From assembly GCA_001661245.1 (NCBI GenBank), contig KV454012.1, positions 826,848-890,847 of the forward strand: a DNA stretch of 64,000 bases, written 5' to 3'. Shown here in pieces: positions 51,394 to 62,167 of the stretch. Numbering within the stretch: position 1 is the first letter of the stretch; each line of letters opens with the position of its first letter. A program made the translations under genes and the position numbers. The DNA is from Pachysolen tannophilus NRRL Y-2460 (taxonomy: Eukaryota). The notes under the pieces are model-generated. The model saw only the letters and a program-made list of their open reading frames with translations, made no database searches and was not told the DNA's origin.

Positions 51394-54300
51394 TTATCGA
51401 AGAGAACCAACTGACCTTCCACTGCTGGTTCGTTCAATAGGATGGTGTGCTGGTCCATATCTGTCGGCATGAGCGAGAGGAATATCATAACTATTACGAG
51501 AATGAATACTCGACGCCAACGAAGTTGCAGAATTTTTCCTTTCCAAGCCTAATCCTCCTGAATTACCCATATCAAAATTATTAAAATTTTTCCTATTTTT
51601 TGAAAACTGTACTCCTTGTTGTTGTCCCTGTTGTTGGCTTAAAAATCTTGGTAACTTTGTCTGTGGATCAATTTCCAAATATTTTGATAATTCTTTTTTC
51701 TCGGTATTATACCTTCTTGAGAGTTCTACAGCATTGGCAGCCCTCAACATCAATCTAATATCACCAACCAATGCTCCAGTCTCATAGAAAAATTCTAATA
51801 TTGCATCAGAACATGGCCTTGCATCTTTTGCAGTCAATTCACCCAATGTTGGCCAAGTCTGTTCTAAAGCTGTATCATAAAACAAATTACTTTGCCCTGC
51901 TGATGAAAATGAATGTCTTTTAGAAGAAGTTGAATCATGTGGCTTCTCATAGGTTGAATAACGTTTACTCATAGTCAGCTGTATTGATTCTTGCTTATCT
52001 CCTGCAGGGGCTGCTGAGGTCGTTGATGCCGCAGTTGATGTTTCATCTTCATCTTCATCTTCTGCATCTACACCTTGATCAGAAGTATTTAAATCAAAGT
52101 CAAAGTCCTCATCAGAGGAAGACGTATAGCTACCACAAAATTCATCATCAGTTAAAGAATTAACACTAGTAAGATCAACTTTAAACTTTGGGTCATCTTC
52201 ATCCAATTCTTCTTTTTGATCTGAAAGTGAAATATTTTGTAAAGATTCGCTCACAGAATTCAAACTAGAAGCAGGTTGCTTATCAGAACATACGCTACCC
52301 AGATCAACACTTCCTCTAGTTCTTTTGGATCCAACGCTATCATGACTATTTTTTCTTGCCTTGCTAATTTTTTTAAGCAACGCAGAATCTAAAAATCCAT
52401 TATTAAAACGATTTAAAAAATCATCAAATTCTTCAACTGTTGGAATCTCAGCTAATATATTATCTTCCATTCCAGAGAAATATTTCTTATGTTTCGCCAA
52501 AACTGAAATATATTGTTGTTTCAAATCATTGGAGTCTTTAATTATTTGAGCTTCTTTTTTGGCAATAATTCCGTACAAAATTTCCAAAATCAAATCGTAC
52601 AATAACGGAACTTCGTAAAATTTGGACAAAAACATGGTATCTAAAGTAGTTGGAGCTATTGGCCATCTGCTTCCAACTTGACCAGTAGACAAAAACTCTG
52701 CAAATGCTTTCACTGTAGTAGACAAAAATGGAACATAAATTGACCTTGGTACTAACAATGCTTCTATCTTGGTAGAACTTACACCTAGCTGTTCTTCAAT
52801 GGTCTTTTTCTTTGGATTTGTCATTGTGTTCAAATTCACACTAATTCCTTCAACGCTTCCTAGGTCTTCAAAAGATAAAATTTGACTCGAAGATAAAGAA
52901 GTAGGTTGAGAAGAATTTCTTGGTAGCAGCGGTGACTGTTGTGGTTGCTGCTGTTGTTGTGCATCTTGCTCTTCTCTAACTTTTTCCAACTGAGAAAATG
53001 GCTGCATTCCAGTTATCGATCCTCTTGGTGAAGATGATGGAGAAACTGATTTCAATTGAGGGAACCGCTGCAGAGATTGAGCTGAAAAACTTTGTGACGT
53101 TGATGTTCTAGGTGTCGTCGATAAGTTCGGTAACTGAGGAAGAGATTCGGTGGGCATTGGCGGTACTGGTGGTAAGTTATTTAGCAACTGGCTTTCTGAT
53201 GCACTTTTGGATAATTCATTATTACTAGCTGAAGATGATCCGGAAACAACAGATGCTTTTCTAGAACTAGATACTGACTTTGGTAATAAAAATGGTGATG
53301 ACAAGTCACTCTTGACATTACCATCTTGAAAAGGTAATCTAAATTGAGGTGCATCTCCTGGGATCGTAGTACCAAGAGTAGGAGAATTATAAACAGTGAA
53401 TTTTGGATCCATGCTATCGGTATTATCTCCAGAAGTACTTTCTTCCTCATTGTTCAAAGTAGGAACAAAAAATTCACTTTCAACTTTTGATTTTTCAAAA
53501 TTATCAAAGGCTCTAACATATGATTTTGCTAAAAGGATTTCAAAACATCTCCCCCATCTCTTTTTGCATAACACAGAAGGAATTGGGATTATTTCACCCT
53601 CGGCACTAACAAGTTCCAAATCTGATAACGATGACCCAAATCTTTCAAATGCGTTTTTACCTAGTGTTACTGCATGTGGTGGAAAAACGGATTTGATTGA
53701 ACTCATCCTTATTTGTGGCACTACATACCGTGAATATGCCATGAAACTATTATCATGACTTTTATTCTGTTGTGTTTCGGATTGCATAGAACCATGATGA
53801 TATTGCGATTGCGAGTGTTCACGATAACCATTTTTTTCTGTATAAAGATAACTTGATGCCCTTGACGATGCATTTGTAAAAGGTAAAGAAACAGATATTA
53901 AATGATTAAAATATTGAGCTGAAGGTGATTCCGCAGAAGCCTCAAAGTTTCCTAGTAATACTATTTTATGATGTGATGACCATACATACCCTGTGGTGAT
54001 TCTATGTGAATATAAAGCATGGTTACAAAAAGCTTTCAACCTTGACCACTTCCCCGTTGGACTATGATACAAATATATGGATTGATGGAATTCATTTGGT
54101 AAACATCCCATAACAATAAAGCATTCTCCAAATATTCCAATATTTGGATAATTCAAATTAAAAGGAATATTAGATTTGTCGGGATTTATATCCAGATTAA
54201 AAGGTAATCTCCTACCAACAGTAGTACCATCCAAGGGAAATTCAATTAATGGATTCAAGTTCGTAATATCACCCATTGATGTAAAGGCCAACATACTGTC

Positions 54301-55875: not shown

Positions 55876-57795
55876 TCAGGCTAGAGGGGTGATGGGAGGG
55901 GGGGAAGAAGTTTTAGGAACTGGTGTTGGTGTAAGTGTAGGAGGTGTTGGCGGAGAAGAAGCATTTTCAGAATGCTCTCCAGAATGATTATCTTTTTGTT
56001 CCAAAGATTCTGTATGGTCTTGATCATGGTCTTTGTCTTGGTCTTGATCTTTATCTTGACCTTCTTGTTGTTGATTATGGTCTTCGGCCGTGGTAATACT
56101 TCCACTTGCACTTCCACTAATGCTTTCTATTTCATCTTCCTTTTTTTTATTTCTCTCTTCTTCATCAATACATGTTAATCCATGATCTTTTAAAAAAAAA
56201 GAGGTTAATAAACAGAGAATCATTAATGGGAACCAAAGATAAAAGATATTTTTAATGGCGTCCATGAAATATTGCTGGACAATAGAGACTTCAGAAGGAT
56301 CTATACTGCTTATATCAATCTTAGAATATAAATTATCTTCAATATAAATCTTGGTAGATGAAGATAAATTCTCATCAGCATTAACTTTATTCAATATTGT
56401 ATTCGAATAAATTAAAGAACAAAATGCCAAACCAACTGCACCACCAAATGATCTAACAACATTTCTTATTGAAATTACAACTGATCTATCAGAAAGTTTG
56501 GCATGAGATTGAGCTGCAACTAAAGTTGGTTGGAAAATACAACCATTTCCAATTCCAATAACAATACAAATGAATACACAACCAACAGGTGGTGTATCAA
56601 CTTCCCATAATAATAATAATCCTGTCCCCAAAGTTTGGAAACAATAACCAATAATCACAACATGAATAAAATGTTTAACCATAGATATAATAAAACCAGA
56701 AGCTATACCGCAAATTGCTTGAGTTAATAAAACTGCCAATGTAAAACAAGATGTGACATTTGTTGAATAACCTCTAACAATTTCAAAATAATATGCAAAG
56801 AAATATGAAGTTGAAAAAAAATTTAAACCAAAACAAAAAGATTGAAGATAAATAAGATTTAAAGATCTATTATTAAATAACCGTATTGGAATTAATGGTA
56901 ATTTAGCTATTTTCCATTCCACAATGACAAACATAATTAAGCATAAACCACCACTTATAAACATTCCAATAACTAATCCACTATCCCATTCATAGATTGA
57001 ACCACCACCATTAATAGGTATTAAAAATAAAATTAAACCTGCAGTACTGAAAAAAAACCAATAAAATCTATATTTTTGATTTTTTCCATCTTAGAAATAG
57101 GGGCCTTAGAACCTGGTACTATAAACCAAGTTATAACGGCTGCAATAATAAATAATGGACAAAGCATATGATAAAAATCCCTCCATGAAGCACCAACTAT
57201 AAAACCAGAACAAATAAAGGGACCTAAACCATTCCCTAATCCAACAAAAGAACCTAATATTCCTTGGTACTTTCCTCTTTGTTCTAAAGTCACAATATCA
57301 GAAACAATAACCATTGTTAAACTGGTTATACCTGCTTGGCCCACGCCGCTAAATGCTCTAAAAACATATAACATTACACCACTATTTGAAAATCCACAAA
57401 TTAAATCAGAAATCGACATTATTATCATTGACAGAATTAAAACACTTTTTCTACCAAAAATGTCAGAAAATCTTCCAAATAAAACTTGGAAAACAGTATT
57501 AGCAATTAAAGCAGAGGTGCCTCGCCCAACTTATTGTCTTTTCTGCATTTATAGATTCTGCAATATAAGGTAAAGCTATAGTAATTCCAGTTTGATCAAC
57601 AAATGCAAAAAAAAGTGCACAAGACATTCCAAGTAATACTGTGATTAATTTCTTACCAGTAAGTCTATGCAAATGAGCATCACCTAATTTATCATCTAAT
57701 GCTTCAGTACTGCTCGGTTTTTGTACATTTTGAGACTCTTTATCAACAAATCTATGAGTTAATCCCTCACTATTATCTCTGAATGATGTACTCAT
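55876..57795 (-). CDS. DHA2-type MFS transporter, paralog A; needs +1 at 57522 and one extra T at 57050-57057 (about 639 aa)
   Basis: Three ORF pieces are collinear with paralog B: FVDQTGI..ALP, ISWA|GTSALIANT, GRFSDIFGRK, VSDIVTLEQRGKYQG, IFQPTLVAAQ, RNVVRSFGGA. Confidence 0.85.
57519..57525 (-). other. candidate +1 ribosomal frameshift heptamer GCG-AGG-C (paralog A)
   Basis: The 0 frame TGG GCG AGG CAC stops at 57499. The +1 frame GGC ACC TCT restores SWAGTS. Confidence 0.8.
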
Positions 57796-58586
57796 TTTCC
57801 AAAATTATTTCCTATTTTCCAGAAATCCAAATTTTAAAAATTTAATTTCTTTTAAAAAAAAAAATACTTAAATAATTCTCAATTCAAATTTCTCAAAATA
57901 AAGTCGGATGGATATACCCTTTATATATATATATATATATATACTCATATATGTACGTCTATTTTTCTTCTCGGTTCCCCTATATCGGCTAGTAATTTTT
58001 AAAGATAAAAAGTGTGTTAATGATTTCTCAAAATGACATCACAATATTCTCCCTAGCCCTACTGTCAAGTCCATCCACCATCTATATTATGCTGTTTAAC
58101 TAACATTCTTCTTCTAGTATGAATATTCTAAGTTATGGTACAATTCCTGACTAATTCCAAAGCGGTTTCTGGTCAGTTGACTGCAACCTTCCGAAGTGTG
58201 GTTTCGGACTTATTCCCTTTTAGGAAAGTACTACGAGATATCGGATAAAAAAAATTTTCCGGACGTTATCTTTTTATATAAAGAACTTTAATGGAAAAAG
58301 CTTGTTAAATGCTTACTTATTACATTTAATTATTGTTAATAACGCAGAGGAAAAGAAAGGTTTTTTTTTTTTTTTTTTTTGTATTTTTGTATTTGAAAAC
58401 TAAAGTCTTGATGAATAATGAAATAAAATATTATACTATACTCCTTTCAGGTCAAGTCCCTGATTTTTGTAAAATGATTATGTCCGTGAAAAAAAAAGAG
58501 AGACTTAAATTTTGAAAAAAATTAGGCATATTTATTCAGCCGCACAGGGTTTTACTGCATATAACAGCATGCGAATTTATTAGTTT

Positions 58587-60480
58587 CTAGTGAGGATTAA
58601 TACTGAATTTGTTGTTGTGCCGTGTATTATTTTTTGCCATAGTTAGGTCTTCGATATCGCTGGGCATATTTTTTGAGGATATTGATTCATTTTGAAAAGC
58701 GTGAGATCCTGTGGTGCTTTCATCATCATCATCATCATCATCATCATCGTTATCATCGTTATCGTTATTGTTATCGTTATCTTTATCGTTATCTTCATTG
58801 GAGTAACATTCATCATTTTGCTCGTCAGGGTCATCGATGCATTTTAAACCATGATCTTTTAAAAAGACAGAGGTACATAGACAAAACAGCATTAATGGAA
58901 ACCAAAAATAGAAAACGTTTTTGAGTGATTCCATATAATATCTTTTCGTTGCTATAACTTCTGACAGTTGAATTTGAGACAATGAAATTTGAGAATAAAT
59001 ATGTTTTTTAATATAATTCTTTGTATTTTGCGATAAATGACTATCTGAATCGATTTTCTTCAATAATGAATTTGAATATATTAAAGAACACAATGCTAAT
59101 CCTATGGCTCCTCCAAAAGATCTGACAACGTTTCTCATAGAAATTACCACTGATCGATCTGCCAATCTCGAATGGGATTGAGCAGCAACTAGTGTAGGCT
59201 GGAAAATACATCCATTACCAATTCCAATGGTAATACAAATAAATACACACCCAACAGGGGTGGTATCCTCTTTCCATAAAAGTAATAACCCATAACCTAA
59301 AGTTTGCAAACAATATCCTGTAGTAATGACCTGTCTGAAATGCTTAAGCCTTGTCAATATATATCCACTTATTATTCCAGCCAGTGATTGAGTAAAAAGA
59401 GCTGCCAGAGTAAAACAAGAGGTTATTAAAGCTGAATAACCACGAACAATTTCAAAATAGTAAGAAAAGAAATATGGGAGAGAAAAATAAGTTATTCCAA
59501 AGAAAAATGTATGAAGAAATATAATATTCAACGAATTATTTTTAAATAAATGTAATGGGATTAATGGTAACTTGGCAACCTTCCATTCTACTAGGAAAAA
59601 CGTAATCAAGCATAATCCACCAGAAATAAACATTCCAATTACTATCCCACTATTCCATGGATATAAAGACCCACCTCCATTAATGGGGATCAAAAATAGA
59701 ATCAAACCTGCGGTACTGAAAAAAAACCCAATATAATCAATTTTTTTAATTTTTTCCATTTTAGAAATTGTTGGCTTGGAATTTGGAACAATATACCAAG
59801 TTACCACAGCAGCAATAATAAATAAAGGACAAAGCATATGATAAAAATCTCTCCATGAGGCTCCTTTAATAAATCCAGAGCAAATAAAAGGACCTAATGC
59901 ATTACCAAGGCCAATAAAACCACCAATAATACCTTGATATTTACCTCTTTGTTCAAGGGTGATGATGTCAGAAACAATAACCATTGTCAAACTACTGATT
60001 CCCCCTTGTCCAATACCACAAAATGCTCGAAATACATACAACATAATACCATTAGTGCAAAATCCACAAACAAGATCAGAAATTGATAATATAAGCATCG
60101 ATGCAATCAAGACGTTTTTTCTACCGAAAATATCTGCAAATCTTCCGAATAAGACTTGAAAAACGGTGTTAGCAATTAAATTAGAGGTGCCTCGCCCAGC
60201 TAATGGTATCTTCTGCATGCAAAGATTTAGCCATATGTGGCAAGGCTACACTAATACCAGTTTGATCAACAAAACCAAAAAAAATTGCAGAAGCTAATCC
60301 TAATAACACAGTAATTAATTTTTTACCTGTAAGCCTATTCAAATGTGCATTACTCAATTTTTCATCTAAAGGTTGATTTTCGTTATTTTCTTGCTTCTCA
60401 ATGATTTGTGATTCAGTGAAATTTAGTTTTTCACCTTGACAAAATGCTTTGTTTCCCATTTCTTGGCTTGAAGCACTCAT
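58587..60480 (-). CDS. DHA2-type MFS transporter, paralog B; needs only the +1 shift at 60192 (630 aa)
   Basis: ORF 60480-60181 (N-terminus plus TM1) overlaps the ORF ending at 58587; they join as ISWA|GTSNLIANTVFQVLFGRFADIFGRK. Confidence 0.88.
60189..60195 (-). other. candidate +1 ribosomal frameshift heptamer GCG-AGG-C (paralog B)
   Basis: The 0 frame reads TGG GCG AGG CAC CTC TAA. The +1 frame GGC ACC TCT AAT continues the transporter. Confidence 0.82.
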
Positions 60481-62167
60481 TTCTACTTATTTAACGAAAG
60501 AAAATATATTAATCTTTTTTTTGCGTTTCTTTATGATTTTTTCCTTCAAAAATCAATGATTCAATAAATAACTATAAACTAAAGAAATATTTATACTATT
60601 TTATAACAAAAAAAGAAATCTTTTTACTTAAATTGAGATTTAAAAACGTACAATGTATTTCTTTTATCTTTGAGAATCAAGTTAATTTCTTAAATTGCAG
60701 TTCCACGATTGGAAAGTTATTTCAAAATTGCGGTATTAATTCTTGTTTACCAAAGCCAAGAAGTAAAGTGCTCAATCTGCAACAACTATACGCCATGATG
60801 GTGATCTCAACTTATCTGAATAGGGTATAACTTTGAATCAAAGGTTTTCCACTTGAAGAAGTATCTTTTTTTTTTTTTTCATTGCTTGGACATAGTTAAA
60901 ATTGGAATTTAACATGCATAACCTCGGATTCCTTTGGCTTTAAGATTTTTTTTAATTTTTTTTTTTGTTAAATCGATATATTTGCTTATCACTTCACCAT
61001 AGCCATTATCTATTTATCAATCATAAGAACCAAAAAAAAAAGAAACCTCTTTTTGCGAGTTTTTGAGTTTTTGGGTTTTCTTAAAACCCTTAAAAAAATG
61101 TACCACAATCATCAATAATGCATCATTATGCACGAGAGTCATCTGCTACTGCAGATACTCACTATTGAAAATATAACGGTAGTTTCTGTTATTACCCGTT
61201 TATTCTCATCTGGGTTGAGTTATAAATTATACTTGCTGGGTATTAAATGCTTCTCTCACGTTGGCATAAATAACTTTATTTCCTTTTGTTGTTTTGTTAT
61301 ATTGGTTAAAACATTAGAGTTAAACTATTAACGGGTAAAGCTTTTCTTTAAAAAAAAACTAATTCTAGACTCTTTAACAGAAAAAAAATCTACCAGTTAC
61401 CTCAGATGAAATGTCAGAAAGTATAGATAAAACAATATACCTTGAAAGCAAAATAACTAAAAAAGTTAAAAAAGAAGTTTGGAAGGGAATGAGCGTTTTT
61501 TTTTTTATTTCCCTTTTTCCCCCTTTTTTGTTTTGCCTTTTTTTGCTGGTGAAACCTTCAGGAAAGAGAAAAATAAAGTGTAGAAGCAAATAGTTCTTTG
61601 TACTTTATATTTTCGAAAGATTGACTGAACTGCCGACTTCAAAATAAATCTTTGCTCAAAATGAACTCTTTTATTAACAATTAAAATCCATAGAAATCTT
61701 TATTGGCGATTTTCCAAGTCAATTCAAGTGAATACTGTTATTTGGGGATAATTATGGACTTTAAATAAAAATCAATACAGGGATCTTACTCTAATGTTTG
61801 GGAAGGGTTCTTTTCCCCACATTCTTTATCTCACTAAACAATAATTAGAACTGGAACCTAATATTTTAATTCTTAAAATAGAACTTTTCAATATATAGCT
61901 TCACAGCGGTAAAATAATTTCAAAAATTAAGAAAAAAAGCATGAACCAAGACAATAGTAATTTTCAAATTTTTTGTCTTCACTATCAATCAAAAGTTAAC
62001 CTTGCAATCAACCAAGACAATTCCCATCTCGGAAAACCATCCAAAATTAACTATTTAAAAAAAAATTAATGCCCTAATTCCTTCTAACCTTACTATTTCT
62101 TTATCTTTATCAGCTTGATCCGATTACATCAGCTTTAACATATCAAAAGAGTGGTTACAGGTTCGCG

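What the first reader, a model, noticed from the sequence alone, without database searches (positions are those of the whole stretch)
57513..60198. Candidate programmed +1 ribosomal frameshift (GCG-AGG-C) conserved in two tandem MFS transporter paralogs
Seen: both DHA2 transporter genes break at the same codon. The 0 frame reads ISW-A-R-H-L and stops (98 and 99 aa, only TM1). Skipping one A (57522 or 60192) gives ISWA-GTSxLIANT, the expected family sequence, followed by the remaining helices. The 16 nt TGGGCGAGGCACCTCT is identical in both copies while neighbouring codons differ synonymously (ATA AGT vs ATT AGC; AAT ACT GTT TTC CAA GTT vs AAC ACC GTT TTT CAA GTC). The motif is GC-rich in otherwise AT-rich genes, is not a homopolymer, and leaves no room for an intron. 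Established: yeast +1 shifts use CUU-AGG-C (Ty1, ABP140), CUU-AGU-U (EST3), GCG-AGU-U (Ty3) and GCG-UGA-C (OAZ1). GCG-AGG-C joins the Ty3/OAZ1 P-site codon to the slowly decoded AGG with GGC in the +1 frame. Inference: a cellular transporter whose synthesis depends on recoding; I know of no described MFS example.
Basis: partly seen in the sequence, partly recalled or inferred. Interest (0 to 1): 0.93.

Follow-up and report, generated by a model that had tools for sequence, protein, structure and literature searches.

The report
Transporter genes needing a ribosomal frameshift
Two neighbouring drug-pump-type transporter genes of the yeast Pachysolen tannophilus each carry the same extra base at a sequence known to make yeast ribosomes skip one base, so they are most likely read by a programmed +1 frameshift, which would be a rare new cellular example.

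Summary
Both minus-strand MFS genes (copy 1 55876-57795, copy 2 58587-60480) break at TGG-GCG-A-GGC. Skipping A57522 or A60192 restores the family motif WAGT without a gap. The window is Pachysolen tannophilus NRRL Y-2460, a yeast that reads CUG as alanine. Its public gene models hide the breaks with artificial introns.

Contigs from sequencing runs of two studies keep the extra A at both sites. They also repair copy 1's second frame break, which is a homopolymer error in the assembly.

The copies are old duplicates (dS about 1.26). The shifted frame is still under strong purifying selection (dN/dS 0.145 over 449 codons). GCG occurs only at the two shift sites, 2 of 69 Ala codons. In copy 1 the +1 frame opens three codons before the site and has no ATG for 31 codons.

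GCG_AGG_C is already reported as a +1 shift heptamer in S. cerevisiae reporters and in K. marxianus KLMX_30357.

Best reading: programmed or corrective +1 ribosomal frameshifting of the Ty3 type without tRNA slippage (about 0.75). No RNA, footprint, peptide, tRNA-gene or orthologue data could be obtained. This is a new member of a known kind.

The parts
60181..60480 (-). Copy 2 (PACTADRAFT_1496), frame-0 part: ATG to stop, 99 codons. It encodes the N-terminal tail and TM1 and ends ISWARHL-stop.
   Evidence: model helix 52-86 is TM1
60189..60195 (-). Copy 2 shift heptamer GCG-AGG-C; the skipped base is A60192.
58587..60191 (-). Copy 2 +1-frame part: 534 codons plus stop, covering TM2-TM14 and an acidic tail.
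57499..57795 (-). Copy 1 (PACTADRAFT_15421), frame-0 part: 98 codons plus stop.
57519..57525 (-). Copy 1 shift heptamer GCG-AGG-C; the skipped base is A57522.
55876..57521 (-). Copy 1 +1-frame part. It is open to the stop once the assembly's missing homopolymer base is allowed for.
57050..57057 (.). A8 run in the window that read contigs show as A9. This is an assembly homopolymer error that falsely breaks copy 1 a second time.
   Evidence: table 4 (A put in behind 57049 in X1, X2, X3)

Best explanation
Both genes encode full-length 14-helix DHA2-type MFS transporters. Making them requires a +1 ribosomal frameshift at GCG-AGG-C. The ribosome starts at the 5' ATG and decodes TM1 in frame 0. It then pauses with peptidyl-tRNA-Ala on GCG in the P site and the slowly read AGG in the A site. 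Gly-tRNA then binds the overlapping GGC, so the A is skipped. This is the Ty3 type of shift, in which the P-site tRNA does not re-pair. Translation continues through TM2-TM14. Ribosomes that do not shift stop 4 codons (copy 2) or 8 codons (copy 1) later and release a peptide of about 98 aa containing only TM1. The one-base insertion most likely arose once, before the duplication, between a GCG and a GGC codon. It would have been tolerable at once because the heptamer it created is intrinsically shift-prone. It has since been kept in both copies. Shown here: the insertion is real DNA, selection acts on both frames, the shift window is narrow, and the joined product is a complete MFS fold. Inferred: the ribosomal mechanism, its efficiency, and the state of the tRNA pool.
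For: The extra A is present in contigs of runs from two studies, and copy 1's other break is an assembly error. For copy 1 versus copy 2 downstream of the site, over 449 codons: dS 1.255, dN 0.182, dN/dS 0.145. That is 176 of 289 synonymous sites changed against 171 of 1058 nonsynonymous sites, Fisher p 2e-48. Differences by codon position are 96/53/198. Upstream, over the conserved 59 codons, dN/dS is 0.187. In a neutral simulation, at 0.02 substitutions per site only 15% of 500 runs keep the 534-codon frame open; at 0.3 none do. Copy 1's +1 frame opens 3 codons before GGC, and its first +1-frame ATG lies 31 codons after; the frame-0 stops come 8 and 4 codons after GCG. GCG accounts for 2 of 69 Ala codons in the two genes, both at the shift sites. 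GGC accounts for 5 of 100 Gly codons. In other window ORFs GCG is 49 of 707 and GGC is 50 of 653. The joined protein aligns without a gap at the junction to 25 homologues, with W95 invariant and A96 and T98 at 90% or more. Pfam MFS_1 covers residues 62-460 in one stretch, E 3.5e-50. The AlphaFold model has pLDDT 80 and pTM 0.77, and the junction sits at the start of TM2 (helix 94-118). The best fold matches are EfpA, EmrB, QacA and NorC. Both copies keep 99 and 102 of 112 highly conserved positions. GCG_AGG_C is reported as a +1 site in K. marxianus and S. cerevisiae (passages). The roles of GCG, AGG and GGC in yeast +1 shifting are described in the Atkins 2016 review (passages).
Against: There is no direct evidence of expression or recoding. 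No RNA run was listed, and no footprints or peptides were available. Only two sequences carry the site, both from one genome and apparently one strain. No orthologue from another species could be examined, so the age of the insertion is inferred only from the absence of a conversion signal. The tRNA gene set of P. tannophilus is unknown here. AGG is not especially rare in this window (61 of 447 Arg codons). Four identical codons in a row is not remarkable in itself, because 211 of 356 identical-residue codons are the same codon.
Confidence: 0.75

Rival explanations
1. Both genes are very recent pseudogenes. A one-base insertion arose in one copy and was copied into the other by a very short gene-conversion tract, and the frames have not yet had time to decay.
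For: The 16 nt around the site are identical in the two copies. dN/dS between paralogues cannot detect a very recent loss of constraint. No second species or strain was available to date the insertion.
Against: The tract could be at most about 16-19 nt, bounded by mismatches on both sides, between sequences that are 74.7% identical (1138 of 1524 nt). The run at the site (15 nt without the A) is only one of 6 runs of 15 nt or more among 282, so it does not stand out. The insertion would have to create, by chance, a known efficient shift heptamer out of two rare codons (GCG 3-7%, GGC 5-8%). Neither copy has any other lesion; the one apparent lesion is an assembly error. A 534-codon frame in this AT-rich DNA rarely survives even 2% neutral change.
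Confidence: 0.08
2. The frame is restored by another route: a tRNA with an enlarged anticodon loop that reads four bases (GCGA or AGGC), or removal of the A in the mRNA.
For: The selection data only require that the +1 frame is translated; they do not say how. Pachysolen has a remodelled tRNA-Ala set: tRNA-Ala(CAG) is said to derive via a CGC-anticodon intermediate and an inserted A (Muhlhausen 2016, one passage).
Against: No such tRNA or editing activity is known in budding yeasts (my knowledge, not tested). The site is not a homopolymer, so transcriptional slippage is unlikely. The heptamer is exactly one that shifts on ordinary yeast ribosomes.
Confidence: 0.05
3. Two separate polypeptides are made: a TM1 peptide of about 98 aa, and a 13-helix remainder started internally. 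They assemble as a split transporter without any frameshift.
For: Both halves are under purifying selection. Copy 2 has a +1-frame ATG 9 codons before the GGC codon.
Against: Copy 1 has no +1-frame ATG until 31 codons after the site, and that frame opens only 3 codons before it. Yet those 31 codons (TM2 and the GRFxDIFGRK motif) are nearly identical at the protein level between the copies, with synonymous differences.
Confidence: 0.04
4. The extra A is a sequencing or assembly error.
For: The window's assembly does contain indel errors at three A runs (57049, 57853, 58488).
Against: Those errors are all in homopolymers, and the shift site is not one. The A is present in two diverged copies and in contigs of runs from two studies, the same contigs that correct the homopolymer errors.
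Confidence: 0.01

Closest known systems
K. marxianus KLMX_30357 +1 frameshift at GCG_AGG_C (bioRxiv 10.1101/2022.03.25.485750; passages seen)
   Same: It has the identical heptamer, lies in a chromosomal gene of a budding yeast, and has a frame-0 ORF followed by a long +1 ORF.
   Different: The protein is different (a YLR257W-like region plus an AAA/Aip5-like region), the yeast order is different, and that case has ribosome-profiling support. Here the shift lies inside a conserved transmembrane core, is obligatory for any functional product, and is present in two paralogues.
Ty3 GCG_AGU_U and S. cerevisiae OAZ1 GCG_UGA_C (Atkins 2016 review, passages; Ivanov 2025)
   Same: GCG is the P-site codon, on which the peptidyl-tRNA cannot re-pair in +1. 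The shift occurs by out-of-frame entry into the A site.
   Different: The A-site codon here is AGG, as in Ty1 and ABP140. No downstream stimulator or regulatory context was found. The host gene is a cellular transporter.
Ty1, ABP140 and YFS1 CUU_AGG_C (PMC12719033: abstract, introduction and passages seen)
   Same: The AGG-C A-site and +1 GGC pair are shared. These are chromosomal genes whose full-length product needs the shift, and the heptamer is conserved among homologues.
   Different: The P-site codon is GCG, not CUU, so tRNA-Leu(UAG) slippage does not apply. Those cases are confined to Saccharomycetaceae, whereas this one is in the CUG-Ala clade.
DHA2 (14-helix) drug:H+ antiporter family of MFS: EfpA, EmrB, QacA, NorC; fungal TRI12-like pumps
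   Same: Pfam MFS_1 and TRI12 match. phmmer against EfpA gives E 3.8e-19. Foldseek TM-scores normalised to the target are 0.81-0.88.
   Different: No member is known to me to need recoding, and none turned up in the literature searches. The substrate here is unknown.

Membership tests
Yeast +1 programmed ribosomal frameshift site (Ty1/Ty3 type) | A heptamer with a shift-prone P-site codon, a slowly decoded frame-0 A-site codon and a well-decoded +1 codon | tested here: met
   GCG-AGG-C is present at both sites. The same heptamer is reported active in S. cerevisiae and K. marxianus (passages; I did not see the primary 1999 paper).
Yeast +1 programmed ribosomal frameshift site (Ty1/Ty3 type) | Frame 0 closes soon after the site, and the +1 ORF has no initiation codon of its own that could serve | tested here: met
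   The frame-0 stops come 4 and 8 codons after GCG. In copy 1 the +1 frame opens 3 codons before GGC and its first ATG is 31 codons after.
Yeast +1 programmed ribosomal frameshift site (Ty1/Ty3 type) | Purifying selection on the protein in both frames, either side of the site | tested here: met
   dN/dS is 0.187 upstream (59 codons) and 0.145 downstream (449 codons), with dS 0.85-1.26.
Yeast +1 programmed ribosomal frameshift site (Ty1/Ty3 type) | The shift site is conserved among homologues that need it, while neighbouring synonymous sites vary | tested here: inconclusive
   This holds in 2 of 2 paralogues. No orthologue from another species could be obtained.
Yeast +1 programmed ribosomal frameshift site (Ty1/Ty3 type) | A matching tRNA repertoire: no tRNA-Ala(CGC), scarce tRNA-Arg(CCU), abundant tRNA-Gly(GCC) | not testable with these tools
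   No whole genome is held. The window contains 0 tRNA genes. The supplements of Muhlhausen 2016 could not be read.
Yeast +1 programmed ribosomal frameshift site (Ty1/Ty3 type) | Direct demonstration of the trans-frame product or of a frame change in ribosome footprints | not testable with these tools
   No RNA holder was listed. No proteomic or profiling data were accessible.
DHA2-type MFS transporter | An MFS fold with 14 helices, the motif-A loop (GRxxDxxGRK) after TM2, and similarity to the EmrB/QacA/EfpA group | tested here: met
   Pfam MFS_1 E 3.5e-50 and TRI12 E 3.9e-16. G112, R113, D116, R120 and K121 are invariant in 26 sequences. The model and its fold matches agree.
Pseudogene | Relaxed constraint or further disabling lesions | tested here: not met
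   dN/dS is 0.145. There are no other stops or indels, and the one extra break is an assembly error. The two copies keep 99 and 102 of 112 conserved positions.
Spliceosomal intron across the site (as in the public gene models) | Non-coding sequence with splice signals that is free to diverge | tested here: not met
   The 33 codons skipped by the copy 2 model are 13 identical, 11 synonymous-only and 9 replacing between the copies, with differences by codon position of 7/2/14. They encode the invariant W95 and the near-invariant A96 and T98. The two models use different 'intron' borders.

The most novel reading that the evidence does not exclude
The shift is a regulatory dial and not merely a tolerated scar. 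Under this reading, the output of both transporters is set by the tRNA pool at GCG-AGG-C. That could be the charging of the rare tRNA-Arg(CCU), which would couple pump level to arginine or nutrient state as polyamines do for OAZ1. The site may also have become shift-prone in this lineage because the tRNA-Ala that read GCG was consumed in making tRNA-Ala(CAG) during the CUG-to-alanine code change.
Probability: 0.12. Interest if true: 0.85.

Novelty: new member of a known kind. Interest (0 to 1): 0.62.

Why it matters
S. cerevisiae has only four known chromosomal genes read by +1 frameshifting (ABP140, EST3, OAZ1, YFS1; PMC12719033), and K. marxianus has one reported candidate. A membrane transporter pair that needs the shift in its conserved core would extend this kind of recoding. 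It sits outside the Saccharomycetaceae, in a yeast with an altered genetic code. The pair would also provide a natural GCG_AGG_C site kept through a duplication. It would show how an insertion can be fixed when it happens to create a shift-prone heptamer. In practical terms, the two public gene models (PACTADRAFT_1496 and 15421) are wrong: their 'introns' remove conserved TM1-TM2 residues.

Tried and rejected
- **Whole genome and tRNA set:** no genome is held, and there are 0 tRNA genes in the window.
- **RNA evidence:** no RNA holder was listed. Run X6 is small, and one of its contigs carries what I recall to be a 454-type adaptor as a loose end. It covers only 58949-59298 and is labelled 'DNA?', so it says nothing about expression.
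- **Split relatives:** I searched with the 99-aa frame-0 product. There were 4 candidates and 1 hit, P0122, which reads WAGTS in a single frame.
- **Close orthologues:** the best non-Pachysolen hits are 49-50% identical and intact.
- **Metagenomes:** the protein scan gave 594 pattern matches and 0 confirmed. The shift-site pattern scan gave 1 locus, L001, whose ORFs look like an AAA/FtsH-type protease (judged by eye from their translations, no family search run), 51% GC, a chance match.
- **Downstream RNA structure:** z-scores are -1.57 and +0.84, and there is no shared fold.
- **Other +1 candidates in the window:** 4 hits. Two are the sites themselves. ATAAGTT at 57534 is not shared by copy 2 and would destroy SWA. 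CGAAGTT at 52615 lies in an alternative frame of a 1246-aa ORF.
- **Intron reading (public models):** rejected.
- **Internal initiation:** rejected for copy 1.
- **Gene-conversion tract:** no signal.
- **Papers:** the supplements of PMC4937558 could not be read. The supplements of PMC5951914 hold codon and proteome tables but no tRNA gene table that I found. PMC359349 is not held. PMC12202755 mentions only generic frameshift errors.
- **Earlier findings of this scan:** nothing on this genome or protein. Two unrelated +1 cases turned up.
Full report
**What is there**

Two tandem genes lie on the minus strand. Copy 1 is 55876-57795 and copy 2 is 58587-60480.

- In copy 2, frame 0 runs 99 codons from ATG 60480 and ends ISWARHL-stop.
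- In copy 1, frame 0 runs 98 codons from ATG 57795 and ends ISWARHLCFNC-stop.
- Reading GCGA as one step, which skips A60192, gives copy 2 as one open 630-residue protein (P0001).
- The same reading of copy 1 skips A57522. It restores the family sequence but meets a second break 156 codons further on.
- GCGAGGC occurs only twice in the 64 kb window, both times at these sites. Shuffles give an expectation of 0.48, and 10 of 100 shuffles reach 2.

**Identity**

The joined protein matches two Pachysolen tannophilus NRRL Y-2460 entries: PACTADRAFT_1496 (copy 2) and PACTADRAFT_15421 (copy 1). The next hits are intact fungal MFS proteins at 49-50% identity.

The public models avoid the breaks by deleting sequence. 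The copy 2 model drops 33 residues around the site. The copy 1 model drops 16 residues at the site and 28 at the second break.

P. tannophilus reads CUG as alanine, so I used table 26 for the codon analyses.

**Is the extra base real?**

Contigs from runs X1 and X3 (one sample) and X2 (a second study) cover both genes at depths of about 118-185.

- At copy 2 they show 0 differences and 0 gaps over 58802-60600.
- At copy 1 they show no difference at 57522.
- All three add one A behind 57049, turning the A8 run at 57050-57057 into A9.

That added A removes copy 1's second break. The coding strand then reads GGT plus nine T's, giving G-F-F-F as in copy 2. The assembly therefore has homopolymer errors (also at 57853 and 58488), but the shift-site A is genuine. 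All these runs look like one strain, so there is no population sample.

**Is the shifted frame translated?**

The two copies are old duplicates. Downstream of the site, over 449 aligned codons, dS is 1.255, dN is 0.182 and dN/dS is 0.145.

- 176 of 289 synonymous sites differ, against 171 of 1058 nonsynonymous sites (Fisher p 2e-48).
- Differences fall 96/53/198 on codon positions 1/2/3 of the +1 frame.
- The conserved 59 codons upstream give dN/dS 0.187 in frame 0.
- Copy 1 keeps 99 and copy 2 keeps 102 of the 112 positions at which 90% or more of 25 outgroup homologues agree.
- Where the outgroup polarises a difference, 24 changes fall on the copy 1 branch and 17 on the copy 2 branch.
- In a neutral simulation of the 534-codon frame, 0 of 500 runs stay open at 0.3 substitutions per site, and only 15% stay open at 0.02.

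Both halves have therefore been protein-coding, each in its own frame, for essentially the whole time since the duplication.

**Where must the frame change?**

- In copy 1 the +1 frame opens only 3 codons before GGC, after a TAA. Its first ATG is 31 codons after the site.
- In copy 2 frame 0 closes 4 codons after GCG.

Taken together, the change must happen within TGG GCG AGG CAC CTC. The alignment with 25 homologues has no gap at the junction. W95 is invariant, and A96 and T98 are conserved at 90% or more. So the change falls after GCG (Ala) and before GGC (Gly).

The 31 codons between the site and copy 1's first +1-frame ATG encode TM2 and the GRFxDIFGRK loop. They are almost identical in protein between the copies, with synonymous differences. 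This rules out internal AUG initiation as a shared solution.

The 'intron' reading in the public models fails for a similar reason. The 33 skipped codons are 13 identical, 11 synonymous-only and 9 replacing, with a 7/2/14 distribution over codon positions.

**The site itself**

- GCG accounts for 2 of 69 Ala codons in the two genes, namely the two shift sites. GGC accounts for 5 of 100 Gly codons.
- In 18 other window ORFs of 300 aa or more, GCG is 49 of 707 Ala codons, GGC is 50 of 653 Gly codons and AGG is 61 of 447 Arg codons.
- The identical run at the site is one of 6 runs of 15 nt or more among 282, so nothing marks a gene-conversion tract.
- No stable or shared RNA structure follows the site.

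**The product**

- Pfam MFS_1 covers residues 62-460 in a single stretch (E 3.5e-50), and TRI12 also matches.
- The AlphaFold model has pLDDT 80 and pTM 0.77. Helix 52-86 is TM1 and helix 94-118 is TM2, so the junction (96|97) lies at the start of TM2.
- The best sequence and fold matches are the 14-helix DHA2 pumps EfpA, EmrB, QacA and NorC.
- Ribosomes that do not shift would release a peptide of about 98 aa containing only TM1.

**Comparison with the literature**

- The Atkins 2016 review (PMC5009743, passages) describes Ty1 CUU_AGG_C. There the A-site AGG is read slowly by scarce tRNA-Arg(CCU), and abundant tRNA-Gly reads the +1 GGC.
- The same review describes Ty3 GCG_AGU_U and OAZ1 GCG_UGA_C. 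In these the peptidyl-tRNA on GCG cannot re-pair, which it links to S. cerevisiae lacking tRNA-Ala(CGC).
- Ivanov 2025 (PMC12719033; abstract, introduction and passages seen) adds YFS1 as the fourth S. cerevisiae gene read this way.
- A K. marxianus preprint (10.1101/2022.03.25.485750, passages) reports +1 shifting at exactly GCG_AGG_C in KLMX_30357 from ribosome profiling. It states that Sundararajan 1999 showed this heptamer to shift in S. cerevisiae. I did not see that primary paper or Vimaladithan and Farabaugh 1994.
- Muhlhausen 2016 (PMC4937558, one passage) says the Pachysolen tRNA-Ala(CAG) probably arose from a tRNA(UGC) copy via a CGC anticodon. This is a lead on why GCG might be poorly served here, but it is not evidence.
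- Searches for a described frameshift in Pachysolen or in an MFS transporter found nothing relevant.

**Verdict**

The mechanism and the heptamer are already known. What is new is the gene class, the lineage, and the retention of the site in two diverged paralogues.

The main remaining rival is very recent pseudogenisation spread by a micro-conversion of about 16 nt (0.08). It requires several unlikely coincidences.

What is missing is any direct readout (cDNA, footprints, peptides), the tRNA gene set, and orthologues from the other CUG-Ala yeasts.

Noticed in passing
window 57049-57057, 57853, 58488, 57865-57866: Read contigs of three runs add an A at three A runs and swap TA for AT at 57865-57866 relative to the window. 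These are homopolymer-type assembly errors, and one of them falsely frameshifts copy 1.
   Followed up: yes
window 55876-60480 (proteins P0002, P0003): The public gene models of both genes use artificial introns with different borders. These delete 33, 16 and 28 conserved residues. Both models need re-annotation.
   Followed up: yes
window 58587-58860 and 55876-56180: Both proteins end in long low-complexity acidic tails that are not alike. Copy 2 is rich in Asp and Asn and includes a poly-Asp run. Copy 1 has Asp/Gln/Lys/His repeats followed by a Pro/Thr-rich end. The model has pLDDT below 50 there, and contigs break at the 58710-58801 repeat.
   Followed up: partly
copy 2 codons 358, 366, 505, 531; copy 1 codon 121: There are five CTG codons, read as Ala in this yeast. 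The one at codon 358 aligns with Leu in 19 of 25 homologues and with TTG in copy 1. The others sit at variable or small-residue positions.
   Followed up: partly
window 58949-59298: A small 2011 run (X6) has one contig with what I recall to be a 454-type adaptor as a loose end. It covers 350 nt of copy 2 downstream of the shift. If it is a cDNA library it would show transcription, but its kind is not on record.
   Followed up: no
window 57911-57955 and 58348-58397: A (TA)n run and a T19 run lie in the intergenic region between the two genes. Read contigs end or are skipped at these places.
   Followed up: no
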